Shown: piece after piece, positions 7,930 to 42,962 of the stretch
Position numbering within the stretch: the first letter of the stretch is position 1
Layout: each line of letters begins with the position of its first letter
Assembly (NCBI GenBank): GCA_017544105.1
Contig: JAFYEU010000099.1
Span: forward strand, 763-64,762
Direction: 5' to 3'
Length of the DNA stretch: 64,000 nt
Origin: Bacteroidales bacterium
GTDB lineage: Bacteria; Bacteroidota; Bacteroidia; Bacteroidales; WCHB1-69
The notes under the pieces: model-generated
What the model was told of the DNA's origin: nothing
The model's database searches: none
What the model saw: only the letters and a program-made list of their open reading frames with translations
Translations under genes and position numbers: made by a program

Positions 7930-7976
7930 GGGAACATGAAGTAAGGGGTCGGAGCAAATTGCGTCAATACTGAGGG

Positions 7977-8016
7977 GTAAGAAACTAAGAAATTAAGAAA
8001 CTAAGAAGTTAAGAGG
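7977..8016. repeat. Tandem degenerate octamer tract (5 x 8 nt, NTAAGAAR)
   Basis: gtaagaaa ctaagaaa ttaagaaa ctaagaag ttaagagg in the intergenic region after namZ. A GTCAAA hexamer mini-tract follows at 8083-8099. Confidence 0.85.
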
Positions 8017-8107
8017 GTTTAGCTTCTTAGCTCCTTCATGGGTCACTCCAAAAGCCTTGGAACGAGAAATTGCGAGGTGATTGTCAAAGTCAAAGTCACT
8101 TGGTTCG

Positions 8108-8361: not shown

Positions 8362-8383
8362 GAGACGTTCCATGGAACGTCTC
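8362..8383. other. Perfect 22-bp palindrome (gagacgttccatggaacgtctc)
   Basis: Read directly from the sequence. It lies between the C69 peptidase stop and the start of the small membrane gene. Confidence 0.9.
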
Positions 8384-8488: not shown

Positions 8489-10081
8489 TTACCACATTCC
8501 GTCAAACACAGTCCAGAGGTGGTCGCCGAGTTTCCAGGCGGTCTCCACAGCGGTGTTGCCGCATTCGTTGGTGAACTTGGTGAGCAGTTGGATGGCTTCC
8601 GTTCTCTGTCCGTTTCGTAACAGCCGCAGCGCCTCGGTCTCCACCGCGTAGTGCTCTTGGATGAACTCTTTCTCCAGGGGTTCCCACGTCTGGTTGATGA
8701 CCACGTGCATGTCGCCCCACCGTTGGCAGGCGATGGTGCCCACGCGGTTGAAGGCCCACCAGGCAGCCTCTTTGCTGAAGCCGGTCTCGCGGCCGTCGGT
8801 CTTGTAGGTCGAGGGCAGGTCGGTGACGTTGGCGTAGATGGGCACATGGATGGAGGAGGCCACGTTGTCGAGGGCGAACCAGCACAAGGCGCCCACCTCA
8901 TCGGGCAGGTCGGCGCGGCACTGGATGATGGTGCCATAGACGGTGAAGTGCACGGCGATGTTGCGCTCGCCTAGCTCGTTCCAGCCACCGTTGATTCTGT
9001 GGAGCTTGAGCTCGTCGCTCTTCATGAAGGGGTTGGCCATGGGCGAGATGACCTGCTTGCCATCCTTGTCGGCCACGGTCAGGGTCTTGCGCATATCGTA
9101 AGGAGTGCCTTCGTAGTAGTCTTTGAAGATGCTCATCATCTTCTCGATGGTCACCAAGGAGTCGGGCTTGACGGAGAAGGGGTAGTTCTCGGCGTTGGGG
9201 TCGAGGTGCAGGGAGGGGGCGAGGAGGTCGAATACGCGCCACTCTCTGCGGCGGCAGGCGATCATGGTACGGCTCTGCGGCGCGTAGGCGTAGGCAAAGC
9301 GGAAGGTCTCCTTGCCATCCCACCAGCCGTTCTCCTTGGCCAGCGAATAGACATTGTCGGAGGCCATGAAGTAGTCCTTGTCCTTGAGGTTGATCTCGCG
9401 GATGGTGGAGGCGTTGGCGTTGACGGCCACGTGGTCGTCGGGCACGCGTTGGGCAGCCCATACGGCACCTACCTTGCCCTTGCCGGGCCCTAAGATCTCG
9501 AGATGCCAGACCTCGTTCTTGTCGGCTATGGTGAGGCACTCGCCCGCGTCTATCCAGCCATACTCTTTCAGCAGGATGCCCGCCGTGCGGATGGCCTCGC
9601 GCGCGGTGGTGCAGCGCTGCAACAACAACATGCAGAGGCGCTGGCAGTCGATAAGGCCGCTGTCGGACTTCAGCTCTGCGCGTCCGCCGAAGGTCGATTC
9701 ACCGATGGCTAACTGATGCTCGTTGACGCACGGGTAGGCCGTGTTCAGGAACTGGTAGGTGTGGGCCGCCTGCGGGATGTCACCCACAGGGATGTCGGCG
9801 TAACGGGCCATCTTGCCAGGCTCGTTGGGCGCCCATACGCGCTTGTAGAGGGTCTGCCGCTCGCCCTGACCGTGGTCCTTGGCCGGCTCCACCATGATGT
9901 TGGTGCGCGACCGGTGACTGTCGTCGGTATGGGAGGTCATCACCGACCCGTCGGCAGAAGCCTTCTTGCCAATGGTGATGCTGGTACACTCCATGCCCTC
10001 CGTGATGGGGTCAACAATCTGTGCCGATAAAGCAAACATGCTCATTACCAACACACAAACAATTAATACAATCTGTTTCAT
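8489..10081 (-). CDS. C69 family dipeptidase
   Basis: Signal peptide followed by the C69 N-terminal nucleophile context (MECTSITIGKKASADGSVMTSHTDDS). Length is 530 aa. Confidence 0.8.
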   Translation of the reverse strand: MKQIVLIVCVLVMSMFALSAQIVDPITEGMECTSITIGKKASADGSVMTSHTDDSHRSRTNIMVEPAKDHGQGERQTLYKRVWAPNEPGKMARYADIPVGDIPQAAHTYQFLNTAYPCVNEHQLAIGESTFGGRAELKSDSGLIDCQRLCMLLLQRCTTAREAIRTAGILLKEYGWIDAGECLTIADKNEVWHLEILGPGKGKVGAVWAAQRVPDDHVAVNANASTIREINLKDKDYFMASDNVYSLAKENGWWDGKETFRFAYAYAPQSRTMIACRRREWRVFDLLAPSLHLDPNAENYPFSVKPDSLVTIEKMMSIFKDYYEGTPYDMRKTLTVADKDGKQVISPMANPFMKSDELKLHRINGGWNELGERNIAVHFTVYGTIIQCRADLPDEVGALCWFALDNVASSIHVPIYANVTDLPSTYKTDGRETGFSKEAAWWAFNRVGTIACQRWGDMHVVINQTWEPLEKEFIQEHYAVETEALRLLRNGQRTEAIQLLTKFTNECGNTAVETAWKLGDHLWTVFDGMW

Positions 10082-10132
10082 AATTATTATCTGTTATCTG
10101 TCATCTATAATCTATTAACCCTATACCCTCAT

Positions 10133-26419: not shown

Positions 26420-26755
26420 CTATTGTTTCAGCAGTTCGTCAATGTGCTCGATATAGTCCAAGGTGTCGTCCAGGAAGAACTCCAGCTGAGGCACCACACG
26501 CAACTGGTTGCGGATGCGCTGCCCCAAGCGGAAACGGATGTCCTTGGTGTTGGCACGCACCGCCGCCACGATGGCCTCTTTGTCAGGCGCCATATAGACG
26601 CTCAGGTAAGCCCTCGCAATGGAAAGGTCGGAGGTGATGGTCGTCTTCGTCACCGTGATGAGGCAGTTGTAGAGGTTGCGACCATCGGCCACAAAGATGT
26701 TGGCCAGCTCCTTTTGCAATAATGCTGCTATCTTGTTTTGTCTTGTCGTATTCAT
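26420..26755 (-). CDS. rbfA: Ribosome-binding factor A
   Basis: 111 aa with RQNKIAALLQKELANIF...ITVTKTTITSDLSIARAYLSV...LRVVPQLEFFLDD. Confidence 0.9.
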   Translation of the reverse strand: MNTTRQNKIAALLQKELANIFVADGRNLYNCLITVTKTTITSDLSIARAYLSVYMAPDKEAIVAAVRANTKDIRFRLGQRIRNQLRVVPQLEFFLDDTLDYIEHIDELLKQ

Positions 26756-26782
26756 AAAGCTATCCTAAAAATAATCAGGCGG

Positions 26783-26790
26783 CAAAGATA
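26783..26790 (-). promoter_or_regulatory. Bacteroidota -7 box (tatctttg) for rbfA operon
   Basis: The reverse complement of caaagata is tatctttg, located 28 nt upstream of the rbfA ATG. Confidence 0.6.
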
Positions 26791-26810
26791 CGCATTTTGT
26801 TGGAAATAGC

Positions 26811-26863
26811 GATTAGGAGTTGTTGGGTGGGAGGTGAGGGAGTTAGAAGTTAGGCAAAGTGAG
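26811..26863. repeat. Heptamer-periodic GTT-anchored tract
   Basis: gattagg agttgtt gggtggg aggtgag ggagtta gaagtta ggcaaag. On the minus strand this reads CTAACTT CTAACTC ... . It sits exactly at the truncated 3' end of the RT remnant. Confidence 0.7.
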
Positions 26864-27207
26864 ACTAATTGTTTTGAAGCCAACGATACTTGGCTTGTCA
26901 CGATGCCATCCCGAATTGCCCCGGAGAGGCGTGATCTCAATAACCCCAGACAAATGGTGAACGATGTGATCGCGAGAATCGGCAGCGAATACTTCTCTTT
27001 TCTTCGGGCCGGTAATGATGAAGCAAGTAGAAGATTTTGGAGAGTAGGTTCGTGTGTAGAGTTCATTACACAACGTATCAAAATTATTCCTCAAGTCGGT
27101 TTCAAACCTTTGCTGATAAAGTTTGAATCGTTTGTGGCGGCGAGCATCAAGCCAAGCCTGACTCAGGCGGCCGTTGTCCTCTTGGGTGTGTGGGGGAGGA
27201 ACAAGGG
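26843..27207 (-). pseudogene. Reverse transcriptase remnant (N-terminal ~110 aa only; DGR/retron-type)
   Basis: The minus-strand frame reads ...EDNGRLSQAWLDARRHKRFKLYQQRFETDLRNNFDTLCNELYTRTYSPKSSTCFIITGPKKREVFAADSRDHIVHHL... . Position by position this mirrors bacterial RT N-termini (A..A.rgKr...F......l..L..EL....Y.P.....F.I..PK.R.I.aa.f.DR.V.HAL). There is no start codon, similarity is lost after HHL, and the frame stops at 26843. RT domains 2-7 are absent. Confidence 0.6.
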
Positions 27208-27951
27208 TTAGTGCTGACTGGCACGCACCGCACGCACAGGATATCCCTCATAGCGGTAGCTGGCGGAGGCGTACATGCCCTCGCGACCCGAGCTGAATCC
27301 GAAGGCCCACGCGAGCCCCGGGTAGTCCAGGTACAGCGCACTCGACCAGTAGAAGCCGAACTCACCCGTGCCATCGATACTCGGGCCGAAGGGGGCGCCG
27401 GCAGCGGGCAGGAAGAGGCTCTTACCATTGGATCCGGTCAGAAGGTGGCCGTTAACCCCATTTAGAACAATCCAAATGCTGGTAGTGTAGTCTATCAACT
27501 CTTCCCACTCGTTTTTAGTCGGTGTGCGGGCTCCACCGCCAAGGTTAGCCGTGGCGGCATCGTCAGAGGCCTGAAGGATGGTCTGGTTGTCTGTAAAGCC
27601 GTTAAGACCGTATGAAGCCTTATTGCAGTATTTAGTGAGCTTACCGTCGTCATTGCCGAATGCGTAGGTGCTCCAGCTATAGACATTCTTCGGGGTGGTC
27701 TCGCCCCAAGCGTAATAATTACCATAGTCCTCAAGGGCGCTGGCACCCACATTCCGATCTGCCCACAAGAGACCGCTCGGCAACCCGAGGTCAACCCAAA
27801 CAACAGAAGACGAGTTGCCGCCATTATTGCCGCCATTATTGCCACCATTGTTGCCGCCATTGTTGTCGCCATTGTTGTCTTCTCTGTCGCAGGACTGTAG
27901 CCCCACACCTAACAGAATTGCAACCATAAAAAATAAAACTGATCTTTTCAT
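27208..27951 (-). CDS. Lipoprotein with C-terminal DUF1566/C-type-lectin-like domain (DGR-target-like)
   Basis: I placed the start at MKRSVLFFMVAILLGVGLQSC (ATG 27951). An (NNGG)n linker follows. The body reads VWVDLGLPSGLLWADRNVGA...YYAWGE...PTKNEWEELI...FLPAAG...FYWSS...AWAFGF..G......GYPVRAVR. Confidence 0.7.
   Translation of the reverse strand: MKRSVLFFMVAILLGVGLQSCDREDNNGDNNGGNNGGNNGGNNGGNSSSVVWVDLGLPSGLLWADRNVGASALEDYGNYYAWGETTPKNVYSWSTYAFGNDDGKLTKYCNKASYGLNGFTDNQTILQASDDAATANLGGGARTPTKNEWEELIDYTTSIWIVLNGVNGHLLTGSNGKSLFLPAAGAPFGPSIDGTGEFGFYWSSALYLDYPGLAWAFGFSSGREGMYASASYRYEGYPVRAVRASQH
27817..27876. repeat. In-frame 12-bp tandem repeat (5 units) encoding (NNGG)n
   Basis: gccgccattatt x2, gccaccattgtt, gccgccattgtt, gtcgccattgtt on the + strand. 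This region forms the lipoprotein linker. Confidence 0.9.
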
Positions 27952-28046
27952 CGCAAAATATGTCCGAGGACCTCGGTTTTCTTTTAATCCGTGACGTTCC
28001 CATACCCTGCGAGGTCCTTTAAACAGGATATGGGAAAACATCGCTG

Positions 28047-28054
28047 CAAATATA
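28047..28054 (-). promoter_or_regulatory. Bacteroidota -7 box (tatatttg) for the DUF1566-like lipoprotein gene
   Basis: The reverse complement of caaatata is tatatttg. A second candidate, tacatttg, lies at 28066-28073. Confidence 0.45.
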
Positions 28055-28147
28055 TAAATATTTTACAAATGTACAAATATTTTATTGATTAAATTGTTTA
28101 TTTATTAATAAAGTGAAATTTTTTGTGAGAATAACCGAAGTTTCGTT

Positions 28148-28155
28148 TATTTTTG
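28148..28155 (+). promoter_or_regulatory. Bacteroidota -7 box (tatttttg) with no ORF behind it
   Basis: TAnnTTTG match. Downstream come a ~100-nt G-rich module and ~220 nt of periodic tracts, before a second -7 box at 28488. Confidence 0.45.
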
Positions 28156-28260
28156 CAGGCATGTCGGAGGTGTGCGGGGGACGACACGATGGGCGAGCGG
28201 CCGTTTGCGGATAACGCGTGCAGATGGGCGGAATCCCCGTGAATTGAGGGGGCGATTGGG
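28156..28260. repeat. G-rich module related to the island-flanking repeat (shares ggaggtgtgcggg)
   Basis: caggcatgtcGGAGGTGTGCGGGggacgac... shares the 13-mer ggaggtgtgcggg, preceded by the same c, with 38119-38130 in the left inverted repeat. The segment aattgagggggcgattggg resembles the unit found beside heptamer tracts elsewhere. Confidence 0.5.
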
Positions 28261-28480
28261 AGTTAGATAATAGTTAATAGTTATGGGTAGTTCGGGGCTA
28301 ACAGCTAATAGCAAACGGCCAAAGTTCAAAGTTCAATGTCAAGGTTAGGAGGTTAGAAGGTTAAAAGGTTAGCGGGTTAATGGGTCAAAGTTCAATGTCA
28401 ACGTCAAGGTTATGGTTTTGACGGCCAACAGCCAACAGCTAATGGCCAACGGCCAACAGCCAACAGCCAAAGTTCAAAGT
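28261..28480. repeat. Composite 7-/8-nt periodic tract array (AGTTNNN, GGTTARNN, GCCAACN, AAAGTTC)
   Basis: agttaga taatagt taatagt tatgggt agttcgg ggctaac agctaat; ggttagga ggttagaa ggttaaaa ggttagcg ggttaatg; ccaacag ccaacag ctaatgg ccaacgg ccaacag ccaacag. The aaagttcaaagttcaatgtcaa motif occurs three times. Confidence 0.85.
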
Positions 28481-28487
28481 TTTTTTA

Positions 28488-28495
28488 TATCTTTG
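28488..28495 (+). promoter_or_regulatory. Bacteroidota -7 box (tatctttg) for SPFH-ROK-ABC genes
   Basis: TAnnTTTG match 80 nt upstream of the ATG at 28576. Confidence 0.55.
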
Positions 28496-28575
28496 CCGCT
28501 TCTTCAAATGATTCAGTGTATGAAGCTGGAGAAATACAAATCAGATAAAAATCAACAACGCAAATATTTAAAATC

Positions 28576-29373
28576 ATGGCATACGCACAACAATCTACCA
28601 GCAAATTTTTCAAATGGATGCGCTACTCCTTATTGGGCTTTGTGGTGCTCATCACCATCTTCAGCTCATTCTATACGGTGAAGTCCACCGAGCGCGGTGT
28701 GCTTTCCACCTTCGGCAAGATCCAGGACAAGGCGGTCGGCGACGGCCTGCATATCAAGATCCCCTTTATCCAGCATGTGCAGAAGGTCAATGTGCAACAG
28801 AAGAAGTTCGACGGCACGGAGAACTCCTATACGCGCGACGTGCAGACATCCGAGGTTACCTACACCATCAACTATGACCTGGTGACCGAGAATGTCAGCC
28901 TGCTGATCAAGAAGGTGGGCAACGACTACCACACGCGCATCGTGGAGCCCTACATCCGCAGCGCCGTCAAGAGCAGTTTCGGTAACTTCAACGCCACCCA
29001 GATCGTGGAGAACCGCGACAAGGTGCGGGCTCAGATAGAGACGAAACTGCGGGAGACCCTCGACCAACGCTATTTCACCAACATCCATTTCCAGCTGGTC
29101 AACATCGACTTTGACGACCAGTTCGAGACAGCCATCAAGGAGAAGCAGGTGGCCGAACAGAACGCCCTGAAAGCCAAGAATGTGACCATCCAGATTGAGG
29201 AGCAGGCCAAGCAGACCAAGATCAAGGCCGAAGCCGAGGCGGAAGCTATACGCATCAAGGCCAATGCTTTGGAGAAGAATCCCAAGCTGGTGGAATATGA
29301 GGCTGTGCAGAAGTGGGATGGCAAGCTGCCCGAATACACAGGCGGTGCCGTGCCGTTTATCAATATTAAGTAA
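28576..29373 (+). CDS. SPFH/band-7 (prohibitin-like) membrane protein
   Basis: N-terminal TM segment followed by the SPFH core (YTVKSTERGVLSTFGKI...GLHIKIPFIQ.V.KVNV) and a coiled-coil tail (EQAKQTKIKAEAEAEAIRIKA). Confidence 0.85.
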   Translation: MAYAQQSTSKFFKWMRYSLLGFVVLITIFSSFYTVKSTERGVLSTFGKIQDKAVGDGLHIKIPFIQHVQKVNVQQKKFDGTENSYTRDVQTSEVTYTINYDLVTENVSLLIKKVGNDYHTRIVEPYIRSAVKSSFGNFNATQIVENRDKVRAQIETKLRETLDQRYFTNIHFQLVNIDFDDQFETAIKEKQVAEQNALKAKNVTIQIEEQAKQTKIKAEAEAEAIRIKANALEKNPKLVEYEAVQKWDGKLPEYTGGAVPFINIK

Positions 29374-29408: not shown

Positions 29409-30515
29409 ATGTACGACAACGATAAAAGAATAGTGGTGACTATGGATGCCGGCGGTACCTTCTTCCGCTTCGGTGCCATTCAAGGCAACAAACCTATGAT
29501 GGAAGAGATTACTTTCCCTTCCGAATCGCGTAATCTTGAAAAATGTCTGAACACCATCGTGAACGGCTTCGGGGCTGTCATGTCCCGCCTGCCGGAGAAG
29601 CCCGTGGCTATCAGCTTCGCCTTCCCGGGACCGGCCGACTATCCCAACGGCATCTTCCCGACCCTGCTGACCAACTTCCCCTGCTTTGCGGAGGGAGTGG
29701 CGCTGGGACCGTTCCTCGAGTCTAAGTTCAACCTGCCGGTCTTCATCAACAACGATGCCGACCTCTTCACCTATGGCGAAGCCCTGGAGGGCCTGCTGCC
29801 CCATGTGAACAGCGTGCTCAAAGAGCGGGGCAGCGCCAAGGTCTATCGCAACATGGTCGGCTTTATCCTCGGCACCGGCTTTGGCATCGGCATCACGACC
29901 AACAACCAGATGTATATCGGCGACAACTGCTGCTCCGAGATCTACTGCACCCCCAATAAGCTGGAACCCGAGCTGATCGTGGAGGAGGGCGTGTCGGCGC
30001 GTGCCGTGCTGCACAACTACCGCCTCTTTGCCAACGATCCCAAGGCGGCCGACTATACCGACTCGTACGACATCTACCAGATTGCCGACGGCACCAAACC
30101 TGGCGACCAGGCAGCGGCGCTGAAGGCCTTCGCCCGTTTCGGAGAGGTGGCCGGCAACACCATCGCCAACGCTGTCTGTATGCTCGATGGCATCATCGTC
30201 CTGGGTGGTGGCGTCTCCAAATCGCACAAGATCTATATGCCTGCCCTGCTGCGCGAACTGCGTACGAAACTGACCACCCGCACCGGCATCGCCATCCAGC
30301 GCGTGCCCTCCTACGTCTATAACCTGGAAGACGAGGCCGAACTCGACCGCTTCATCCAAGGCGAACAACGCGAGATCCCCGTCTTCGGCACCGACCGTAC
30401 CGTGAAGTGCGATGTCCAGAAACGCCTCGCCATCGGCATCTCCCGTCTGGGCACTACACAGGCCACGACCATCGGCGCCTACTGCTTCGCCCTCCATAAA
30501 CTCGACGAAAAATAG
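29409..30515 (+). CDS. ROK family sugar kinase/regulator-like protein
   Basis: DAGGT phosphate-1 motif (VTMDAGGTFFRFG), ISFAFPGPADY, INNDADLFTYGEA and GTGFGIG. Confidence 0.8.
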   Translation: MYDNDKRIVVTMDAGGTFFRFGAIQGNKPMMEEITFPSESRNLEKCLNTIVNGFGAVMSRLPEKPVAISFAFPGPADYPNGIFPTLLTNFPCFAEGVALGPFLESKFNLPVFINNDADLFTYGEALEGLLPHVNSVLKERGSAKVYRNMVGFILGTGFGIGITTNNQMYIGDNCCSEIYCTPNKLEPELIVEEGVSARAVLHNYRLFANDPKAADYTDSYDIYQIADGTKPGDQAAALKAFARFGEVAGNTIANAVCMLDGIIVLGGGVSKSHKIYMPALLRELRTKLTTRTGIAIQRVPSYVYNLEDEAELDRFIQGEQREIPVFGTDRTVKCDVQKRLAIGISRLGTTQATTIGAYCFALHKLDEK

Positions 30516-30557
30516 CCAACGGCTAATAGCCAATGGCCAATAGCCAACAGCTAACAG
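30513..30557. repeat. Heptamer tract (RGCYAAY x6) filling the ROK-ABC intergenic gap
   Basis: agccaac ggctaat agccaat ggccaat agccaac agctaac. It runs from the ROK stop codon to 2 nt before the ABC ATG. Confidence 0.85.
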
Positions 30558-37116: not shown

Positions 37117-37121
37117 AATGA

Positions 37122-37685
37122 TTAGTGGCTTAAGATGGTTTTATAGCGCATGTCGCCGGTGAGGACTGCGTTGATGGGGATGCCTAGGACGGTGGTGGAG
37201 GCACTGCCGCTTGCGATGCTGGTCCATTCCATAATGCCGTCTACCGGTGGTTGGATGGTGGGATGGGACATGCTGACGCTGACACCGAAGTTGATGGGAT
37301 AGTTCCCGATGGTGGTGTCAATGACCATATTGACCGTGTCGTTTTCAAGATGGAGACCGTCAATGTCAACAATACCGTGCAGATAAAGAGCGTCGTTGTT
37401 GCTGATGATCACGCCGTTTTCGACAGCAGGGTCGGATTTCACGGTGACCATTTCAACATCAAGGTCTTTGTCGAGCGGGAAGGAAAACATGCCGAGCACA
37501 TTGATGGAGAGCTCGGTGTGGCGGCTCATCAGGTATTTGCCCAGATAGGGTGTGATGTCAATGGAGGTTTCGTCGGGGTTGTTGTTACCGTTGCCGCCGT
37601 TGCCGCCAGGATTGTCGGGGCCTTGTTCGCAGCCGCACATCAAAAGGGCTACAAGAGTCATGAGGGTGAAGATAGTCTTTTTCAT
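37122..37685 (-). CDS. Hypothetical lipoprotein with Gly/Asn linker
   Basis: Lipobox LLMCGC followed by NPGGNGGNGNNNP. No recognisable family. Confidence 0.55.
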   Translation of the reverse strand: MKKTIFTLMTLVALLMCGCEQGPDNPGGNGGNGNNNPDETSIDITPYLGKYLMSRHTELSINVLGMFSFPLDKDLDVEMVTVKSDPAVENGVIISNNDALYLHGIVDIDGLHLENDTVNMVIDTTIGNYPINFGVSVSMSHPTIQPPVDGIMEWTSIASGSASTTVLGIPINAVLTGDMRYKTILSH

Positions 37686-37787
37686 AATAGATTGAATGAT
37701 TGAGTGATGCTATTTTTATAAGTTCTTTCACGCCATATCTTCAGCCTCTGCGAGATCCATCAAACAGAATCTGAAAATATGACGTGG

Positions 37788-37795
37788 CAAAATTA
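37788..37795 (-). promoter_or_regulatory. Bacteroidota -7 box (taattttg) for the envelope operon
   Basis: The reverse complement of caaaatta is taattttg, about 100 nt upstream of the ATG at 37685. Confidence 0.45.
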
Positions 37796-37974
37796 GAAAC
37801 TTTATCGGAAAGTGTAACATAAAAAAAGACAAAAAATGCACTTTTTCTGGAATCTTTTTCAATCTCTTGCGACATGCTCATAACTAGCTGGTTCGCATGT
37901 GATTGTCTTGGCTTATTCGGAATTGCAGGGCAGAACCTGTTCGGGATGGTTCAGGTATTAAACGAGGTTGTTCG

Positions 37975-38171
37975 GGGAGTAAGTGCAGTTAGGAGTTGTC
38001 AGTTTTCAGTTTGGAGTTAGCAGTTAATGGGGATGGCGGGGGCGTAGTGTGTATGGCGCAGGCCGTAGGTCTGCAGGTTTTGGTAGCCAAGGAGCCGCAC
38101 GGGCCCAATCGCACGCCGGAGGTGTGCGGGCGGTATGTCGGGGCGGGGTGTGCATTGCGGGGGCAAATGTA
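37975..38171. repeat. Left inverted-repeat element (IR-L): heptamer tract + unit + 78-bp GC core + unit + outward-facing -7 box
   Basis: The heptamers agttagg agttgtc agttttc agtttgg agttagc agttaat occupy ~37988-38029. The core at 38061-38138 is the reverse complement of 42858-42935 (74/78 by eye). Nt 38008-38061 are the reverse complement of 41093-41146 (53/54). caaatgta at 38164-38171 gives tacatttg on the minus strand. Confidence 0.85.
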
Positions 38172-38376
38172 GGAATTTTCAGAGACAATAGATTGCTTTA
38201 GATATTATTTTTAGAATTTTCCACGTTGAACTTATAGTTTTAATAAATAAGATGAAAAAATGATGGAAGAATCTTGAATGTACTTGTGTTGATTTTTCCT
38301 TTTAAAAAGGTAATGATATAGATGTTGACCAAAAAAAGACAAATAAGACCGGCATGATGCTCTCTACAATCATACG

Positions 38377-38429
38377 GTGGCACTTCCGTGCCACGAGGCG
38401 CCAATTCCCCTTCTGATTCTCAGAAGGGG
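38377..38429. other. Two adjacent perfect hairpins in a small GC-rich islet
   Basis: Hairpin 1: gtggcac-ttcc-gtgccac (38377-38394). Hairpin 2: ccccttctga-ttc-tcagaagggg (38407-38429). Confidence 0.8.
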
Positions 38430-38582
38430 TGCCCAAAGGGCGGGGTAGTTAATATGGATTATAATTTCTTAATTTTCATGAAAGCTGCGGAGGATATTTC
38501 CTTGTTTCCGCTAGTGTGGGTAATGGCCATATTTCTCTGCTAAGGTATTCATATTTTTTATGTTACTGAACCGACTTTTTTC

Positions 38583-38590
38583 TATCTTTG
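38583..38590 (+). promoter_or_regulatory. Bacteroidota -7 box (tatctttg) inside the island
   Basis: TAnnTTTG match about 160 nt upstream of the lipoprotein gene at 38751. Confidence 0.45.
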
Positions 38591-38750
38591 CACCCGATAA
38601 AAGTGCTACACTTTTTAGTGACCAAATTAGTAAAGTTTTTAATGATTATATACAGCATATAGAGCAATGGAATTACACGGTATCTCAACGACAGCAACGC
38701 CTAGGGGATCTCTACACAGATAAACGTGTCAAACACAAAATGCATCACGA

Positions 38751-39299
38751 ATGAATAAGAGACTATCAATATTGCTGTTTTTAATCTGTCTTTGTGGCTG
38801 CAACCGGATTCCGGACAATCAAAGCATGCTTCTCACACTAACGCATGGGGAATACACTGTAGTGTTAAAGTCTGTGATTGAAAAAAACAATTATGATATT
38901 ATATGGAAAGAGTATGGTTTTTCGTATCCATATATTCTTTCTCAAGAATTGATTTTTTATCATAACGGGAAGCCTCTTAAGAGGCATGTCATACCTGTCC
39001 CTAAACGCCAATTTGTGATTAATAGCAGAAAAGTTCATTTTCTAAAAACACCAATATTTGACATCGAACTGTTGCAGGGAGCAGATAATCTGTATGTGCA
39101 TTTATATGGTGCAAATTATTGTTGTGGTATTTCTTGTCCAGAATTCAATGGCCTATATCTGCTTGACGGAACGATTATTTCAGAATGCATATCCGTTATG
39201 GGTCAACCACTTAATGGGAAGAATATTGACGAAATAGGGGTTGATATCAATAACCCCATAAAACGAAAATCTATGTACACAATATTTAAGCCGCTATAA
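38751..39299 (+). CDS. Hypothetical lipoprotein (candidate orphan immunity protein)
   Basis: Lipobox LICLCGC, AT-rich, and the first gene of the toxin/immunity island. No cognate toxin lies upstream. Confidence 0.5.
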   Translation: MNKRLSILLFLICLCGCNRIPDNQSMLLTLTHGEYTVVLKSVIEKNNYDIIWKEYGFSYPYILSQELIFYHNGKPLKRHVIPVPKRQFVINSRKVHFLKTPIFDIELLQGADNLYVHLYGANYCCGISCPEFNGLYLLDGTIISECISVMGQPLNGKNIDEIGVDINNPIKRKSMYTIFKPL

Positions 39300-39382
39300 A
39301 AACATCTTTGTCTAAGTTAGTTCTTTTTTCGTACTTTCGCTCCATTTAAGATATTTTTCGTACTTGTCACTCCGACAAATAA

Positions 39383-39635
39383 TAATGGCCACTTACCAGT
39401 CATATTATCCTCCTCTCTTCCCCGCGCGAAGCCTTCTCTCCTGCGCCAAACACGCCACATCCGCTCCACCACCCTCAACTGCTCACTGTTCACTGCTCAC
39501 TGTTCACTGGATTTACACCTTCTCCGCCCAAGAACGCGACTCCGAGACGGGATTAAGCTACTTCGGCTCACGGTATTATAGCAGCGACTTGAGCATCTGG
39601 CTCAGCGTGGACCCGATGAGTGACAAATATGCAAG
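39383..39635 (+). repeat. Cassette-head direct repeat, copy 1
   Basis: Homologous to 41031-41297. It carries a conserved ATG, a Pro/Ser-rich GC segment (cccgcgcgaagcc..ctcctgcgccaaacac...), a heptamer tract (actgctc actgttc actgctc actgttc) and then the rhs core coding sequence up to gacaaatatgcaag. Confidence 0.8.
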
Positions 39636-40254
39636 CACTTCTTCATACGCATATTGTAGGAATCAACCCATAATTTTGGTAGATCCTAATGGCAAATTTG
39701 ACACGCGTGCTGAAGCAAGGCAATATCGAAAAGAGCATCATACTGGAGGAAAAATCCACAAGCGATCTGAGAAAGATACTTTTTCGGGTAATTATTTAAT
39801 AGATAACAAAAGAACACGAACGAGTTATACAAAACCGAAAAATCACGATGAATCCGATAGTCCAACTATAGGACTAGACAACGTAGGGGTGGTTTCTTCG
39901 CCAATGATTCTTTACAAACAATCAAATTCCAAAGCAAATAATATACTGTCTTCAGACGCCACTACTTGTCTGCTAATTACATCTGACGATTGGACTGGTT
40001 TTGGAATTGCAGATGATGTTGCAATACCGATAATATTATCAACAGCAATAATCACGGCAGGTGTGATAAAGTTACAGGATTTCATATTAATGTCACAACA
40101 TGGTGTGAACAATGATAAACTCACTACTGATGAAAGAAAGATCCTTGAAGAAAAGGAACGTAATAATACTATCTCGCCTACTGAAAAACAAAAACTGAAA
40201 AAAGACAGAAAAAACAGAGGATTAATACATTCTAGACAAAGTAAGGACAAATAA
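39385..40254 (+). CDS. Orphan RHS-core C-terminal fragment fused to an unclassified toxin-like C-terminal domain
   Basis: The RHS repeat-associated core tail reads YTFSAQERDSETGLSYFGSRYYSSDLSIWLSVDPMSDKYASTSSYAYCRNQPIILVDPNG. A unique ~190-aa tail follows, with one hydrophobic helix (VAIPIILSTAIITAGVI) and a Lys-rich end. I placed the start at ATG 39385, which is conserved with cassette 2. No YD-repeat shell is present. Confidence 0.6.
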   Translation: MATYQSYYPPLFPARSLLSCAKHATSAPPPSTAHCSLLTVHWIYTFSAQERDSETGLSYFGSRYYSSDLSIWLSVDPMSDKYASTSSYAYCRNQPIILVDPNGKFDTRAEARQYRKEHHTGGKIHKRSEKDTFSGNYLIDNKRTRTSYTKPKNHDESDSPTIGLDNVGVVSSPMILYKQSNSKANNILSSDATTCLLITSDDWTGFGIADDVAIPIILSTAIITAGVIKLQDFILMSQHGVNNDKLTTDERKILEEKERNNTISPTEKQKLKKDRKNRGLIHSRQSKDK

Positions 40255-40271
40255 AACAATATATCGATCTC

Positions 40272-40913
40272 ATGAAAAAAAAACAAGAGTCAAATCTTCT
40301 AACTTCTAAAGAACGTATAGCAAACAATAAAGGTGTTTCAAATAAGAAACTAGTGTCCCTTTTGCATAAGATGTCTTATGCTGACTTGGGTGATTATTTA
40401 TTGACAAATAAACAATTTTCAAAGGATAACATTGTTATAATAAAACAATTTATTATAGAACATTTGGACAATCCAAATAGGCTTTTTGTTTCAGATTTAA
40501 TAGATTTTTCTATTATTTACAACATTGAATTGCCTTATAAAAAATGTATTGATTTCCTAAATAAATATGGTGGTGACGATGATTATGTTCAAATGTCATC
40601 CATAGATTACCTTTTTTACAACCTAAAGTGTTCCTTTTTTCCAATAATTATTGAAAGAATGATTCAAATTACAAGCAATCCCAAATCCCATGTAGCTTCT
40701 AGAATACGTTCCGCATTCTTTTTGTATCGACATACTCATCGTGAAAGATTTTTATTGGATTTAGTATCCTTTGTTAAAAGAGATTCCTATTATGAGGATC
40801 TTCTAATGAATTTATTGTCAGTTGAGTATAATTCTATCGAATTTTTCCCTGATTCAAAACGTATTCTTGAACTTATTGGTAGAAAATACCAAATTCAATA
40901 TCATCAACAATGA
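40272..40913 (+). CDS. Candidate cognate immunity protein (cytoplasmic, alpha-helical)
   Basis: Lies 17 nt after the toxin ORF, is AT-rich and has no signal peptide. The call rests on position only. Confidence 0.45.
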   Translation: MKKKQESNLLTSKERIANNKGVSNKKLVSLLHKMSYADLGDYLLTNKQFSKDNIVIIKQFIIEHLDNPNRLFVSDLIDFSIIYNIELPYKKCIDFLNKYGGDDDYVQMSSIDYLFYNLKCSFFPIIIERMIQITSNPKSHVASRIRSAFFLYRHTHRERFLLDLVSFVKRDSYYEDLLMNLLSVEYNSIEFFPDSKRILELIGRKYQIQYHQQ

Positions 40914-40940
40914 ACAACTAGCGCTCTCAGAGTATAATAG

Positions 40941-41917
40941 CCTAGACGTAATAATTATTTTAATACCTTTCTCTTCGACACCCAATCCTATATCTTCAAG
41001 ATGGAGTACGAATACGACTCATACAACCGCATAACAATGAACCCTCACCCACCATATCCCTCCTCTCCCTCCCCCGCGCGAAGCCTCCCTTCCTGCGCCA
41101 AACACACTACGCCCCCGCCATCCCCATTAACTGCTAACTCCAAACTTCTAACTCCTAACTGGTTTTACACCTTCTCCGCCAAAGAAAAGGACGTTGAAAC
41201 CGGCCTAAGCTACTTTGGCTCACGCTATTACAGCTCCGATCTGAGCATCTGGCTGAGCGTGGACCCGATGAGTGACAAATATGCAAGTTTATCGCCCTAT
41301 AATTATTGCGCCAATAACCCGGTGAAGTTGGTGGACCCGAATGGGGAAGAGTGGGAAACTCCTGAAGATGCTAACTATGCACAACATCCATTTCCATAGC
41401 TCAAACGCGACAAAAACAGTATGACCCATCGAGCAGGGAGTATAAACTTTTGCAAGAAGGAATTGATGGATTGATTTCTATGGGTAAGGAAAAGGGGCAG
41501 AAATATACTTTTAACAAGTCATTGCTGGCAACTGGCAATGTGTCCAGACAAGAAAGCGGGACAATAAGTATTAACTACATTGAAGATAATAGTAATGAGT
41601 ATTTGAAAGATGGATCTGCATGGCATGAAGCGTTTCATCTATCTCGTAGAAATGCTTGGAAGACACTGTCCTGCAACGAAAGACGCAATGCCGCTACACA
41701 ATACTGGGGGTTTGATGAGAATGGTTTCTTGTTTAGCGACAACAATTGTGATGAAGAGTATATGGCATATCGGTCCCAGATGGCATTTTCTCCACAAAGT
41801 ATGCCACACCTCCCACTAGGGCAAGTTGACAACAATGAAAGTATTCAATTGTATGTCGCTTCTAAATACAAGAAAGAATGCTGTGACCACAAGTTTCGAC
41901 TTCCATCTATAAAATGA
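40941..41917 (+). pseudogene. Orphan RHS-core fragment + HExxH metallopeptidase-like toxin domain, interrupted by a frameshift
   Basis: YD-repeat end EYEYDSYNRIT, then the core tail FYTFSAKEKDVETGLSYFGSRYYSSDLSIWLSVDPMSDKYASLSPYNYCANNPVKLVDPNGEEW. The frame stops at 41397-41399. Another frame is open from 41375 and continues as ...ISIAQTRQKQYDPSSREYKLLQEGIDGL...SAWHEAFHLSRRNAW... to 41917. Confidence 0.65.
41031..41297 (+). repeat. Cassette-head direct repeat, copy 2
   Basis: Homologous to 39383-39635. Its heptamer tract is ttaactg ctaactc caaactt ctaactc ctaactg. Nt 41093-41146 are the reverse complement of 38008-38061 (53/54). Confidence 0.8.
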
Positions 41918-41927
41918 AGAATAAAAA

Positions 41928-42746: not shown

Positions 42747-42799
42747 TAAAATATGATAACAATATCCTATTCGACATCCTCTTCGAGACAAAAACATCT

Positions 42800-42962
42800 T
42801 TCCGCGCGAAGACTTACCTTTTGCGCCAACCGCGCTACACCCCTGCCATACGTAGATACATCCCGCCCGCACACCTACGGCGTGCGATTGGGCCCGTGCG
42901 GCTCCTTGGCTACCAATACCTGCAGACCCACGGCCTGCAATATGCGCGCCACACCATCACCC
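42800..42962. repeat. Right inverted-repeat element (IR-R): cassette-head-like segment + unit + 78-bp GC core + unit
   Basis: tccgcgcgaagacttaccttttgcgccaacc... resembles the heads of cassettes 1 and 2. The core at 42858-42935 is the reverse complement of 38061-38138. The element abuts the HMA gene stop at 42965. Confidence 0.85.

What the first reader, a model, noticed from the sequence alone, without database searches (positions are those of the whole stretch)
28261..28480. Dispersed family of GTT-anchored tracts with strict 7- or 8-nt periodicity, often at junctions of truncated genes
At least nine places in the window contain runs of 4-7 degenerate heptamers or octamers built on the same anchor (AGTTNNN/GGTTARNN, or the complement CTAACTN/RGCYAAY). 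The sites are 7977-8016 (8-mers), 26811-26863, 28261-28320, 28343-28382 (8-mers), 28423-28468, 30513-30557, ~37988-38029, ~39474-39510 and ~41124-41161. They are not simple microsatellites: the anchor is fixed while 3-4 positions vary from unit to unit. Three of them sit exactly at a junction between a gene remnant and unrelated sequence (the RT remnant's 3' end and both rhs cassette heads). One fills an entire intergenic gap from stop codon to start codon (30513-30557). I do not recognise this as a described repeat class. Candidate explanations are a protein-binding array, a recombination or repair scar, or part of a MITE-like element.
Basis: seen in the sequence. Interest (0 to 1): 0.6.

Follow-up and report, generated by a model that had tools for sequence, protein, structure and literature searches.

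The report
Heptamer tandem-repeat tracts in spacer DNA
The tracts are real short tandem repeats of 7 (sometimes 8) bases that pile up in the non-coding DNA of an uncultured rumen Bacteroidales bacterium. This repeat class is already described in cyanobacteria, giant sulfur bacteria and a few Bacteroidetes, so the finding is a new example with some interesting positional rules, not a new kind of element.

Summary
Period-7 and period-8 tracts occur about ten times more often than local shuffles give. They are almost entirely non-coding, and they differ between close strains by whole repeat units.

The window comes from an uncultured rumen Bacteroidales MAG. Across 80 related loci (1.23 Mb), period 7 dominates: 119 tracts, against 1-7 for periods 4, 5, 10 and 11. 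Density is patchy between lineages, from 0 to 26 tracts per 100 kb.

The class is already described. It matches heptanucleotide long simple-sequence repeats (Mrazek 2007), cyanobacterial STRR, and the TAACTGA-type repeats of MacGregor 2015, which included Bacteroidetes. It is not a MITE or IS fragment. The "GTT anchor" is only a statistical tendency.

What appeared new here:
- **Strand polarity.** Tracts next to start codons are G-poor on the mRNA strand and give unusually unstructured leaders. Tracts next to stop codons are C-poor and rich in stop codons.
- **Rhs orphan cassettes.** Hundreds of these in rumen Bacteroidales carry a heptamer tract exactly at the 5' limit of homology to full-length Rhs genes, and the tract keeps the reading frame open.
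- **DGR-fragment insertion.** This 1.7-kb insertion is bordered by tracts on both sides.

Best explanation: these are slippage-born repeats that fill unconstrained DNA and are filtered by position. Sequence-specific function is unproven.

The parts
7970..8023 (+). Octamer array (TAAGAAAC/TAAGAAAT, about 5 units), 41 nt after the stop of gene 6682-7929. The last unit pairs with an inverted copy to form a 13-bp hairpin at 8001-8030.
   Evidence: TRF period 8/16. Period scan. Fold.
10072..10131 (-). On the sense (-) strand it reads GGGTATA GGGTTAA TAGATTA TAGATGA CAGATAA CAGATAA. It fills the 51-nt spacer between the stop of gene 10133-12598 and the ATG of gene 8489-10081.
   Evidence: TRF 10085-10117. 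Scan. Sequence. Gene calls.
26811..26863 (+). Degenerate G-rich tract (GATTAGG AGTTGTT GGGTGGG AGGTGAG GGAGTTAG AAGTTAGG). It forms the left border of a 1.7-kb insertion, next to the truncated end of an RT fragment. This is the weakest member.
   Evidence: Not called by TRF or my scan. Sequence. Identical in L001. Homology to L002-L004 ends at about 26810.
28261..28297 (+). Block A of the composite array: AGTTAGA, AGTTAAT, AGTTATG, AGTTCGG units.
   Evidence: Sequence. TRF 28264-28283.
28296..28320 (+). Block B: GGCTAAC AGCTAAT AGCAAAC. This is the same unit family as 28423-28468 and 30513-30557.
   Evidence: the repeat finder family D2. Sequence.
28320..28342 (+). Block C: CAAAGTT CAAAGTT CAATGT. 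It recurs at 28385-28410 and 28466-28482.
   Evidence: TRF. The repeat finder D7 and D15.
28341..28390 (+). Block D: octamer array GGTTAGGA GGTTAGAA GGTTAAAA GGTTAGCG GGTTAATG. The window has 5 units; strain L001 has about 10.
   Evidence: TRF period 8. Alignment A1 shows +16 and +15 nt in L001.
28423..28482 (+). Block B' (GGCCAAC/AGCCAAC/AGCTAAT, 6.7 units) followed by CAAAGTT x2. L001 has one unit fewer. The block ends 5 nt before the promoter -7 box.
   Evidence: TRF score 66. Alignment A1, -7 nt.
28488..28495 (+). TATCTTTG, a match to the Bacteroidetes -7 promoter motif TAnnTTTG, upstream of the SPFH/Band-7 gene (ATG at 28576). The orthologous promoter is present in L002 and L004 without any array.
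   Evidence: Motif scan. L002/L004 sequence. The motif identity comes from general knowledge of Bacteroides promoters.
30513..30557 (+). Heptamer array (AGCCAAC GGCTAAT AGCCAAT GGCCAAT AGCCAAC AGCTAAC) filling the ROK-to-ABC-transporter spacer from stop to start. It is G-poor on the mRNA strand.
   Evidence: TRF. One unit in L001, none in L002-L004. Identical in L086, which is 97% identical overall.
37985..38029 (+). AGTTNNN array belonging to an inverted, truncated copy of an Rhs orphan-cassette head (37976-38138).
   Evidence: TRF. Inverted repeats I1-I3. Variant form in L001.
39474..39510 (+). CTCACTG/TTCACTG array, in frame (STAHCSLLTVHW), immediately 5' of the Rhs core-end coding sequence of orphan cassette 1 (ORF 39364-40254).
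   Evidence: TRF period 14, 100%. Sequence. Motif scan. Alignment A2.
41124..41161 (+). TAACTGC TAACTCC AAACTTC TAACTCC TAACTGG array, in frame (LTANSKLLTPNW), immediately 5' of the Rhs core-end of orphan cassette 2 (ORF 41001-41399). The in-frame unit reads AAA where TAA would be a stop.
   Evidence: TRF. Sequence..
39511..39690 (+). Rhs core-end homology (YTFSAQERDSETGLSYFGSRYYSSDLSIWLSVDPMSDKY...) that starts exactly where the tract ends. The second copy is at 41162-41345.
   Evidence: Translation and motif scan. 613 database homologues.

Best explanation
The tracts are arrays of short tandem heptanucleotide repeats, with a minority of octanucleotide repeats. They belong to the bacterial class known as long simple-sequence repeats, STRR or TAACTGA-type repeats. 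Here they sit in the non-coding DNA of an uncultured rumen Bacteroidales bacterium.

**How they form.** They arise and change by gain or loss of whole units, or blocks of two to three units, through replication slippage or unequal recombination. Point mutation then follows, mostly transitions in this window. That is why an 'anchor' stays fixed while a few positions vary.

**Where they accumulate.** A few preferred unit families, containing TAAC/GTTA, TTAA or GTT, recur at unrelated sites in a genome. The arrays build up wherever DNA is free of coding constraint:
- spacers inside operons;
- 3' trailers;
- DNA upstream of promoters;
- dead DNA at rearrangement junctions, such as the borders of the DGR-fragment insertion and the heads of Rhs orphan cassettes.

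Periods of 7 and 8 shift the reading frame and usually carry stop codons, so the arrays are purged from genes.

**Why the strand matters.** Position decides which strand is tolerated. Next to a start codon the G-poor strand is the mRNA strand. This gives an unusually unstructured leader, which suits Bacteroidota because they initiate translation without Shine-Dalgarno pairing. Next to a stop codon the C-poor strand is the mRNA strand, and it carries stops in all three frames.

**What they do.** On this view they act at most as generic spacer or leader sequence, not as sequence-specific sites. In Rhs orphan heads one such tract has been frozen into an open reading frame.

**Shown here:** periodicity and excess over chance; exclusion from genes; whole-unit differences between strains; presence or absence among relatives; strand polarity; leader folding energies; frame preservation.

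**Inferred:** the slippage mechanism, transcription of the tracts, and selection as the cause of the polarity.
For: **Excess and periodicity**
- In the window, 7 period-7 tracts against 0.57 expected, and 3 period-8 tracts against 0.63 expected.
- In 80 related loci (1.23 Mb), 119 period-7 and 26 period-8 tracts, against 3, 1, 6 and 7 for periods 4, 5, 10 and 11.

**Non-coding location**
- Only 7 of 184 tracts lie inside called genes, although 86.5% of the DNA is coding.

**Whole-unit dynamics**
- The window and L001 (94% nucleotide identity) differ in the 28261-28482 array by +16, +15 and -7 nt.
- The ROK-ABC tract has 6 units in the window and in L086, 1 unit in L001, and none in L002-L004.
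- TRF finds higher-order periods of 14, 16 and 21.
- Differences between neighbouring units are transition-biased in the window, 54 transitions to 35 transversions.

**Not essential, and lineage-specific**
- Density per 100 kb is 10.9 in the window, 15.4 in L001, 0 in L002-L004, 4.7 in L005-L022, 26.1 in L023-L042 and 3.0 in Alistipes and others.
- At the same spacer, different genomes carry unrelated units.

**Polarity**
- Within 20 nt upstream of a start codon: G 6.6%, C 24%; G<C in 38 tracts against 5.
- Within 15 nt after a stop codon: G 19.7%, C 10.4%; G>C in 48 tracts against 19.
- Tract-free background: 12.8/16.6% for leaders and 19.9/19.9% for trailers.
- The result holds when each unit type is counted once: 21 against 3, and 23 against 11.

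**Leader structure**
- Minimum free energy of -45..+30 is -3.99 kcal/mol for tract leaders (n=41) and -7.49 for tract-free non-coding leaders (n=413), p=6.6e-8.
- Reverse-complementing the same leaders gives -12.1, p=1.6e-7.

**Stop-proximal tracts**
- Stops occur in all three sense frames in 54 of 69 tracts, against 39 of 69 on the antisense strand.

**Literature**
- Heptamers are the commonest long SSR, and a polymerase-slippage rationale has been proposed (PMC4679880 citing Mrazek 2007; PMC4692102).
- Bacteroidetes lack Shine-Dalgarno sequences, and structure in the initiation region tunes translation (PMC6847099; PMC3155529).
Against: - Slippage alone does not explain why the same unit families recur at unrelated spacers of one genome. 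Near-stop units are similar in 24.6% of within-genome pairs against 10.5% of between-genome pairs, permutation p about 0.005.
- It does not explain why GTT/AAC, TTAA and TAAC motifs are over-represented in units.
- It does not explain why density differs so sharply between sister species.
- The 45-nt ROK-ABC tract is identical in a strain that is 3% divergent elsewhere, so it is not hypermutable on that timescale.
- Tracts mark both ends of the 1.7-kb insertion and the exact homology limit of Rhs orphans. A break-associated origin would predict this too.
- No expression data were available, so transcription of the tracts and any effect on translation are inferred from sequence alone.
- My gene calls come from a home-made codon model.
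Confidence: 0.6

Rival explanations
1. The arrays are sequence-specific cis-regulatory sites on single-stranded RNA or DNA. A protein with one binding module per roughly 7 nt (ribosomal protein S1, a cold-shock-domain protein or an RRM protein) would coat them and tune translation initiation or mRNA stability of the neighbouring cistron.
For: - Tracts run right up to start codons: 35 of 85 end within -6..+6 nt of the ATG.
- They have a consistent orientation.
- Particular unit families recur within a genome, and motif biases exist.
- MacGregor 2015 proposed exactly this for TAACTGA repeats and noted that CspB binds heptamer repeats one protein per unit (PMC4679880).
- Deleting heptamer repeats altered recO and recF reporter output in Nostoc and E. 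coli (bioRxiv 10.1101/2022.06.06.494920).
Against: - More than 40 different units are used.
- The unit at a given spacer differs completely between related genomes, and sister species lack tracts at the same genes.
- Tracts also occur upstream of promoters and in convergent regions.
- No candidate binding protein was identified or tested here.
Confidence: 0.2
2. The tracts are contingency (phase-variation) switches. Gain or loss of one 7-nt unit shifts the reading frame of Rhs orphan toxin ORFs, or alters promoter geometry, turning genes on and off in a population.
For: - Tracts lie inside ORFs at the head of Rhs orphan cassettes.
- One unit equals a +1 frameshift.
- Unit number differs between strains in the array next to the Band-7 promoter.
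- One database orphan has exactly +21 nt, or 3 units, which preserves the frame (P0018).
Against: - Every orphan examined at the DNA level was in frame, including 8 that were not the search query. No out-of-frame allele was seen.
- The arrays are short and imperfect (4-6 diverged units), which slips poorly.
- The ROK-ABC tract is unchanged in a strain 3% divergent elsewhere.
- Most tracts lie outside ORFs and outside the promoter core.
Confidence: 0.1
3. The tracts are repair scars or filler DNA. A polymerase or reverse transcriptase would add reiterated heptamers at double-strand breaks or illegitimate-recombination junctions, so tracts mark breakpoints.
For: - The 1.7-kb DGR-fragment insertion (26811-28482) is bordered by tracts exactly where homology to L002-L004 stops and resumes.
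- A tract follows the truncated RT fragment.
- Tracts sit at the exact 5' homology limit of Rhs orphans, whereas the full-length Rhs gene has normal coding sequence there.
Against: - In relatives most tracts lie in syntenic spacers between intact, co-directional genes with no rearrangement: 140 of 184.
- Arrays change by whole units between strains with no new breakpoint.
- Non-functional junction DNA is also simply where neutral repeats can grow.
- No candidate enzyme was identified.
Confidence: 0.07
4. Paired G-rich and C-rich arrays form long imperfect RNA or DNA hairpins that act as terminators, processing sites or cruciforms between genes.
For: - A few clear inverted arrays exist: L027 2348-2430, L028 12475-12983 and L007 3733-3819.
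- The window has a 13-bp hairpin at 8001-8030.
- Cognate G-rich/C-rich pairs are slightly more complementary than shuffled controls: -12.7 against -9.7 kcal/mol, p=0.03-0.07.
Against: - Cognate pairs are no more complementary than non-cognate pairs, p=0.39.
- Folding 28240-28500 gives z-scores of +0.58 and -0.61 on the two strands.
- Many spacers have only one array.
Confidence: 0.05
5. The tracts are fragments of a MITE, IS or other mobile element consensus.
For: They are dispersed, and the same unit families appear at several sites.
Against: - There are no terminal inverted repeats, target duplications or shared non-repeat flanks.
- Unit sequence and number differ at every site.
- Orthologous sites differ by whole units rather than by element presence or absence.
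- There is no Rfam hit on the tracts.
Confidence: 0.02

Closest known systems
TAACTGA heptamer direct repeats of marine Beggiatoaceae, cyanobacteria and five Bacteroidetes (MacGregor 2015, PMC4679880)
   Same: - Tandem 7-nt units, almost all intergenic.
- Often directly upstream of start codons in a fixed orientation.
- Mixed with other heptamers, strain-specific, and patchy across phylogeny.
- Translatable in one orientation when inside ORFs.
- TAACTNN arrays of three or more units occur 18 times in the related loci, and the window has TAACTGC/TAACTCC units.
   Different: - No exact (TAACTGA)n of two or more units in the window or any locus.
- Many unrelated units are used, and octamers occur.
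- The host is an uncultured rumen Bacteroidales lineage.
- I did not see the following reported in what I read of that paper (outline, abstract, introduction and term-search passages): the opposite G/C polarity of stop-proximal and start-proximal arrays, or the link to Rhs orphan heads.
Heptanucleotide long simple-sequence repeats (LSSR; Mrazek et al. 2007, as summarised in PMC4679880 and PMC4692102)
   Same: - Units of 5-11 nt, with 7 the most abundant.
- Longer than chance allows.
- Units that are not multiples of 3 are excluded from genes.
- Phylogenetically scattered.
- A polymerase-slippage origin has been proposed.
   Different: That is a statistical class without positional rules. The ten genomes named there as richest in 5-11 nt repeats were Burkholderia, cyanobacteria, actinobacteria and Xanthomonas.
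Cyanobacterial STRR (short tandemly repeated repetitive) heptamers (Mazel et al. 1990; unit sequences recalled from memory)
   Same: Tandem heptamers dispersed in non-coding DNA, with a few preferred units per genome. The window unit CAACAGC is one base from STRR3 (CAACAGT, as I recall it).
   Different: - The STRR1 and STRR2 units are absent.
- The phylum differs.
- STRR arrays are typically more uniform.
G-rich GGGAATC / GGGGAYT heptamer repeats of Xanthomonas and Nostoc (Rehm et al. 2015, PMC4692102)
   Same: - Intergenic heptamer arrays with conserved and variable positions within the unit.
- Extensive length and sequence variation between close relatives at the same intergenic sites.
- Occasional inverted arrays.
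   Different: Those are G-quadruplex-forming G-runs. The present units are A/T-rich with no G-runs.
Simple-sequence contingency loci of Haemophilus, Neisseria and Moraxella
   Same: Tandem short units whose number changes by slippage. A tract inside an ORF, with a unit length that is not a multiple of 3, could switch the reading frame.
   Different: Those tracts are long and perfect, sit in host-interaction genes and are demonstrably hypervariable. Here the arrays are short and diverged, mostly outside ORFs, and no off-frame allele was seen.
Rhs orphan (displaced) C-terminal toxin cassettes
   Same: - A fragment of the conserved core end, then a variable toxin, then a small downstream gene.
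- Arranged in tandem, and variable in number between strains through recombination at the conserved heads.
   Different: Here each head carries a heptamer tract exactly at the 5' homology limit, within a long open frame. I know of no description of that feature, and my literature searches were not aimed at it.

Membership tests
Heptanucleotide long simple-sequence repeats (LSSR) | Head-to-tail tandem copies of a 5-11 nt unit | tested here: met
   TRF periods 7, 8, 14 and 16 with 73-100% matches. Sequences.
Heptanucleotide long simple-sequence repeats (LSSR) | Arrays longer or more frequent than composition predicts | tested here: met
   7 against 0.57 (period 7) and 3 against 0.63 (period 8) in local shuffles. 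0 in dinucleotide shuffles at the strict threshold.
Heptanucleotide long simple-sequence repeats (LSSR) | Units that are not multiples of 3 are concentrated in non-coding DNA | tested here: met
   7 of 184 tracts lie inside called genes, against 86.5% coding DNA. The gene calls are my own.
Heptanucleotide long simple-sequence repeats (LSSR) | Copy-number differences between related strains in whole units | tested here: met
   +16, +15 and -7 nt between the window and L001. 6 units against 1 against 0 at the ROK-ABC spacer.
TAACTGA direct repeats (MacGregor 2015) | Exact TAACTGA unit repeated two or more times | tested here: not met
   0 matches in the window and all loci. Related TAACTNN arrays are present.
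TAACTGA direct repeats (MacGregor 2015) | Intergenic, within a few nt upstream of start codons, in forward orientation | tested here: met
   35 of 85 start-proximal tracts end within -6..+6 nt of the ATG. Orientation bias of 38 against 5. Window example: 30513-30557.
Cyanobacterial STRR | Units STRR1 (CCCCAGT), STRR2 (TTGGTCA) and STRR3 (CAACAGT), as recalled from memory | tested here: not met
   No STRR1 or STRR2 arrays. Only CAACAGC arrays, one base from STRR3.
Cyanobacterial STRR | Host is a (heterocystous) cyanobacterium | tested here: not met
   The window matches rumen Bacteroidales MAGs and carries a PorZ T9SS gene and a Bacteroidales small SRP RNA.
MITE / IS fragment | Terminal inverted repeats, target-site duplication, and a shared consensus beyond the repeat | tested here: not met
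   No such flanks in the repeat finder on 26700-28600. Flanks differ at every site.
Structured RNA family / terminator hairpin | Stable, conserved secondary structure or an Rfam match | tested here: not met
   z-scores of +0.58 and -0.61. No Rfam hit on any tract. Only a local hairpin at 8001-8030.
Contingency-locus SSR (phase variation) | Unit-number heterogeneity that toggles the frame or promoter spacing within populations | tested here: inconclusive
   The tract is in frame in all DNA-level orphans. One +21-nt allele exists. No population-level reads were available.
Protein-binding iteron-like array | A cognate protein that binds the repeated unit | not testable with these tools
   No binding data. 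Unit diversity argues against one specific binder.
Rhs orphan toxin cassette (context of 39474-39510 and 41124-41161) | Conserved Rhs core-end motif followed by a variable C-terminal domain, without the upstream YD-repeat shell | tested here: met
   YTFSA(K/Q)E(K/R)DxETGLSYFGSRYYSSDLSIWLSVDPM is invariant in 19 aligned sequences, with divergent tails. Sources name the homologues 'RHS repeat-associated core'. The genuine 704-aa Rhs gene in L089 carries the same motif after normal coding sequence.

The most novel reading that the evidence does not exclude
In this group of rumen Bacteroidales, heptamer arrays are not neutral filler but a selected building material for intergenic DNA.
- C/A/U-only arrays would serve as structure-free ribosome landing pads for Shine-Dalgarno-less initiation.
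- G/A/U arrays would serve as all-frame stop barriers after genes.
- A frame-preserving array would form part of a conserved 'head' module (X element, then tract, then core end) that lets Rhs toxin cassettes be exchanged, inverted or switched.

A lineage-specific factor, either a polymerase or repair property or a unit-binding protein, would explain why unit families are shared within a genome and why sister species differ from 0 to 26 tracts per 100 kb.
Probability: 0.25. Interest if true: 0.65.

Novelty: new member of a known kind. Interest (0 to 1): 0.4.

Why it matters
Heptamer tandem repeats have been recorded in scattered bacterial lineages since 1990, and nobody has established what generates them or whether they do anything. 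This uncultured rumen Bacteroidales group offers an unusually dense natural data set. Up to nine arrays occur in 4.6 kb, sister species have none, and the positional rules are clear.

- **Translation.** Because Bacteroidota translate without Shine-Dalgarno pairing, the orientation rule turns the question "do heptamer leaders promote initiation?" into a direct reporter experiment. The rule is that leaders are G-poor and 3.5 kcal/mol less structured than ordinary leaders.
- **Rhs toxins.** The conserved, frame-preserving tract at the head of hundreds of Rhs orphan toxin cassettes is a new handle on how these toxin repertoires are rearranged in gut Bacteroidales.
- **Annotation.** Such tracts inflate or break ORF calls. 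Many database "proteins" begin with translated repeat and junk sequence. The tracts can also be mistaken for novel elements.

Tried and rejected
- **Exact-sequence lookup of the ROK protein** found no record. The organism was identified instead by the genome-contig scan.
- **The metagenome scan** with a conserved 29-mer returned only one same-species contig, L086. It was meant to sample many strains for unit-number polymorphism and gave a single extra data point.
- **General hairpin model rejected.** Cognate G-rich/C-rich arrays are no more complementary than non-cognate ones, p=0.39. The excess over shuffled controls is marginal. Fold z-scores are near 0.
- **No meaningful relation found** between the GC-rich 28140-28260 segment and the Rhs head 'X element'. 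Only a 20-nt motif is shared. No DGR template/variable repeat pair was found near the RT remnant.
- **'All-frame stop barrier' rejected for start-proximal tracts**, which show 25 against 25 for sense and antisense strands. It is supported only for stop-proximal tracts.
- **A Pfam scan of a mis-framed RT region** errored. The RT fragment was recognised from the ORF translation instead, so its identification rests on motif recognition and not on a profile score.
- **Frame-preserving units in database proteins** might have been pure ascertainment bias. I checked DNA of neighbouring, non-query orphans, and all were open. Several of these are near-duplicates, so independence is limited.
- **Literature searches** for heptamer repeats in Bacteroidales or rumen bacteria found nothing beyond MacGregor 2015. 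The library does not cover subscription journals.
Full report

Yes. The sequence at 28261-28482 is visibly a mosaic of short tandem units:
- AGTTAnn x4
- GCTAACA x3
- CAAAGTT x2-3
- the octamer GGTTAGnn x5
- CAAAGTT/CAATGT again
- GCCAACA x6.7
- CAAAGTT x2

A self-identity scan over periods 4-16 gave 7 period-7 tracts where local shuffles give 0.57 (maximum 2). It gave 3 period-8 tracts against 0.63. Other periods that are not multiples of 3 were at background. At a stricter threshold no dinucleotide shuffle produced any tract.

The site at 26811-26863 is degenerate and below threshold.

The positional statements are correct:
- 30513-30557 spans from the TAG of the ROK gene to the ATG of the ABC-transporter gene.
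- 39474-39510 and 41124-41161 abut the Rhs core-end sequence.
- 26811-26863 follows a truncated reverse-transcriptase fragment.

**2. Where does the window come from?**

A PorZ type-IX-secretion gene and a Bacteroidales small SRP RNA point to Bacteroidales. A genome scan with the ROK protein places the window in an uncultured rumen Bacteroidales lineage. The best match is a yak-omasum MAG at 99% amino-acid and 94% nucleotide identity.

The scan also supplied 80 related loci. In those 1.23 Mb, period 7 stands out: 119 tracts, with 26 at period 8, against 3, 1, 6 and 7 at periods 4, 5, 10 and 11.

Density is very uneven:

| Group | Period-7 tracts per 100 kb |
|---|---|
| Window | 10.9 |
| L001 | 15.4 |
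| L002-L004 (three sister species, 90% ROK amino-acid identity) | 0 |
| L005-L022 | 4.7 |
| L023-L042 (clade at 59-64% ROK amino-acid identity) | 26.1 |
| Alistipes and other Bacteroidales | 3.0 |

Locus L025 has nine arrays in 4.6 kb.

**3. Anatomy and dynamics**

Using my own codon-model gene calls, only 7 of 184 tracts lie in genes, although 86.5% of the DNA is coding. Of the rest, 140 lie between co-directional genes, 17 between divergent genes and 7 between convergent genes.

The tracts fill spacers completely. Many overlap the stop codon of the upstream gene, and 35 of 85 end within 6 nt of the downstream ATG.

They change by whole units:
- Against strain L001, the 28261-28482 array differs by +16, +15 and -7 nt while the flanks align base for base.
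- The ROK-ABC tract has six units in the window and in a 97%-identical metagenome contig. It has one unit in L001 and none in L002-L004, where the spacer is only 2-14 nt.
- At that same spacer, more distant genomes carry entirely different units: AGTTAGT, CTGTTAA, GGATAAT, CAATTGATAAT.

TRF's periods of 14, 16 and 21 show duplication of multi-unit blocks. Differences between neighbouring units in the window are mostly transitions, 54 against 35.

All this is the signature of slippage or unequal exchange followed by point mutation. It also shows that a given tract is dispensable.

**4. Positional rules**

*Strand polarity.* Oriented to the mRNA strand, tracts within 20 nt upstream of a start codon are G-poor (G 6.6%, C 24%; 38 against 5). 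Tracts within 15 nt after a stop are C-poor (G 19.7%, C 10.4%; 48 against 19). Tract-free leaders and trailers show 12.8/16.6% and 19.9/19.9%. The skew flips along the spacer. It survives counting each unit type once: 21 against 3, and 23 against 11.

*Start-proximal tracts.* Initiation regions (-45..+30) with a tract leader fold to -3.99 kcal/mol on average. Tract-free non-coding leaders fold to -7.49 (p=6.6e-8). The same leaders fold to -12.1 if reverse-complemented (p=1.6e-7). Bacteroidetes lack Shine-Dalgarno sequences, and structure around the start codon tunes initiation (PMC6847099; PMC3155529). The orientation rule is therefore what selection for open leaders would produce.

*Stop-proximal tracts.* These carry stops in all three sense frames more often than on the antisense strand, 54 of 69 against 39 of 69. 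This fits arrays that grow into gene ends and must supply a stop. Stop codons contain no C.

*Hairpins.* Pairing between the two array types is not a general feature, though a few true inverted arrays exist, as does a 13-bp hairpin at 8001-8030.

**5. The 'junction' cases**

*DGR-fragment insertion.* Relative to L002-L004, the window carries a 1.7-kb insertion between the rbfA promoter and the Band-7 promoter. It contains an RT N-terminal fragment and an Lcl_C/DUF1566-type gene, which looks like a dead diversity-generating retroelement. Homology stops at about 26810 and resumes at about 28478, exactly at the two arrays.

*Rhs orphan heads.* These are the more striking case. A search with ORF 41001-41399 returned 613 short 'RHS repeat-associated core' proteins, the 120 listed coming largely from ENA and JGI metagenome assemblies and Bacteroidales MAGs. 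In 73 of the 103 that have a long N-terminal extension, the residues just before the invariant (Y/H/F)TFSAKE(K/R)D show a 7-residue period. That is a translated heptamer tract:
- PTANYSLLTANSS
- TVNCQLSTVNW
- ILNSSFLILNW
- TAHCSLLTVHW

A genuine long Rhs gene (L089) has ordinary coding sequence at that position...DYVNQRLNDFDGVRYTFSAKEKD. The tract therefore marks the exact 5' limit of homology between orphan and main gene.

In every orphan checked at the DNA level, the frame stays open for 60-133 codons through the tract. This includes eight that were neighbours of the query and so were not selected through the protein database. The unit that would place TAA in frame carries a substitution: AAACTTC, CTCACTG, ATTCTTC.

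Same-species contigs L091 and L092 have a single cassette whose head is a mosaic of the window's heads 1 and 2. The heads therefore recombine.

A break-associated origin cannot be excluded for these cases. Non-functional junction DNA is also simply where repeats are free to grow.

**6. Comparison with what is known**

The class is described:
- Heptanucleotides are the most abundant long simple-sequence repeats in many bacterial genomes, and polymerase slippage has been proposed as the cause (Mrazek 2007, as summarised in PMC4679880, and PMC4692102).
- Cyanobacteria have STRR heptamers.
- Xanthomonas and Nostoc have GGGAATC-type arrays that vary between close relatives at the same sites.
- MacGregor 2015 described TAACTGA repeats directly upstream of start codons in Beggiatoaceae, cyanobacteria and five Bacteroidetes, including the Bacteroidales member Paludibacter. 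That paper noted other heptamers mixed in and no evident transfer mechanism.

The window has no exact (TAACTGA)n but does have TAACTGC/TAACTCC units. TAACTNN arrays are common in the relatives. Membership in the general heptamer-SSR class is met on all four features tested. Membership in STRR, or in TAACTGA in the strict sense, is not met.

TTAA and TAAC/GTTA are also enriched.

**7. What remains unexplained**

- Near-stop unit families are shared between different spacers of one genome more than between genomes: 24.6% against 10.5%, permutation p about 0.005.
- Sister species differ from none to many tracts.

Simple slippage predicts neither. Both leave room for a lineage-specific generating or binding factor. 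No expression, binding or population data were available.

**8. Verdict**

The finding is real and statistically solid, but it belongs to a known kind: a new member in a rumen Bacteroidales lineage.

The claim of an undescribed class and the MITE idea are not supported.

The orientation rules and the frame-preserving tract at Rhs orphan heads are the parts worth following up.

Noticed in passing
window 26843-28041 (- strand): This looks like a dead diversity-generating retroelement. It has an RT N-terminal fragment (26843-27094, ...PKKREVFAADSRDHIVHHL...) truncated after about 55 residues. Next to it is an Lcl_C/DUF1566-type gene (27208-28041), the kind of C-type-lectin-fold protein DGRs usually diversify. 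That gene contains a 12-nt coding repeat (27814-27877, NGGN x5). The whole 26811-28482 block is absent from sister species L002-L004. No template/variable repeat pair was found.
   Followed up: partly
window 37118-42960: This is a low-GC (30-44%) island of Rhs orphan toxin cassettes, absent from L003 and L004. It has three direct 'heads' (from 39379, 41031 and 42802) and an inverted truncated head (37976-38138). Strain L001 carries a core-end in the opposite orientation (L001 19378-19520). Same-species contigs L091 and L092 carry one recombinant cassette. Together these suggest recombination or inversion between heads. No full-length Rhs gene or recombinase is in the window.
   Followed up: partly
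window 42858-42955 and 38041-38138 (inverted); database proteins P0005, P0015, P0037, P0074, P0101, P0112, P0118: A GC-rich 'X element' lies upstream of the tract in orphan heads. It is conserved across many metagenomic orphans and appears in predicted proteins as ...PHTYGVRVCSCAAIATEPCRPTAC.... It may be a conserved nucleotide element rather than real protein sequence.
   Followed up: no
window 28158-28178, 38110-38130, about 42858-42880 (inverted): A shared 20-nt motif, GCAYGYCGGAGGTGTGCGGG (18 of 20 identical, z about 4 against shuffles), occurs each time about 100 nt from a heptamer array. At 28148 it directly follows a TAnnTTTG promoter-like box. Its significance is unknown and it may be chance.
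   Followed up: partly
window 8362-8383; L004 about 16985-17020; L029 about 11105-11155: There is a perfect palindrome, GAGACGTTCCATGGAACGTCTC. Related GTAGAGACG...CGTCTCTAC hairpins recur in intergenic DNA of several of these genomes. They look like a REP-like or terminator-like dispersed hairpin family.
   Followed up: no
L093 1-600 (IMG/VR contig) and proteins P0069, P0071, P0086, P0091, P0093, P0105, P0111, P0119: This is a tract-less class of mini Rhs-core-end genes. They have their own TAnnTTTG promoter-like box and an ATG 21 codons before TFSAKEKD (MNQHFTHTVSPIPMLFADYYTFSAKEKD). This suggests some of the short cassettes are independently expressed genes.
   Followed up: no
L025 91-1270, 2387-2510, 4231-4380: Intergenic DNA here is built almost entirely from successive heptamer arrays in a stereotyped order. 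The order is: stop, (GAATTAA)n, a GC hairpin with a T-run, (GGCTGTT)n, (TAGACTT)n, (CCCTATT/CACTACT)n, a TAnnTTTG box, then the ATG. A 900-bp segment (about 1-960 against 870-1830) is also duplicated.
   Followed up: partly
window 57832-57940 (-), 12668-12748 (+), 2-6610 (+): Ordinary features were also seen: a Bacteroidales small SRP RNA, a tRNA, and a >2198-aa open reading frame that runs off the left edge of the window (not scanned against any family library).
   Followed up: no
window 28576 upstream; L002 8690-9125; L004 8690-9130: Sister species have a small gene of about 130 aa with a predicted lipoprotein-like signal peptide between the shared promoter and the Band-7 gene. The window lacks this gene, which is a further local rearrangement at this spacer.
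   Followed up: no
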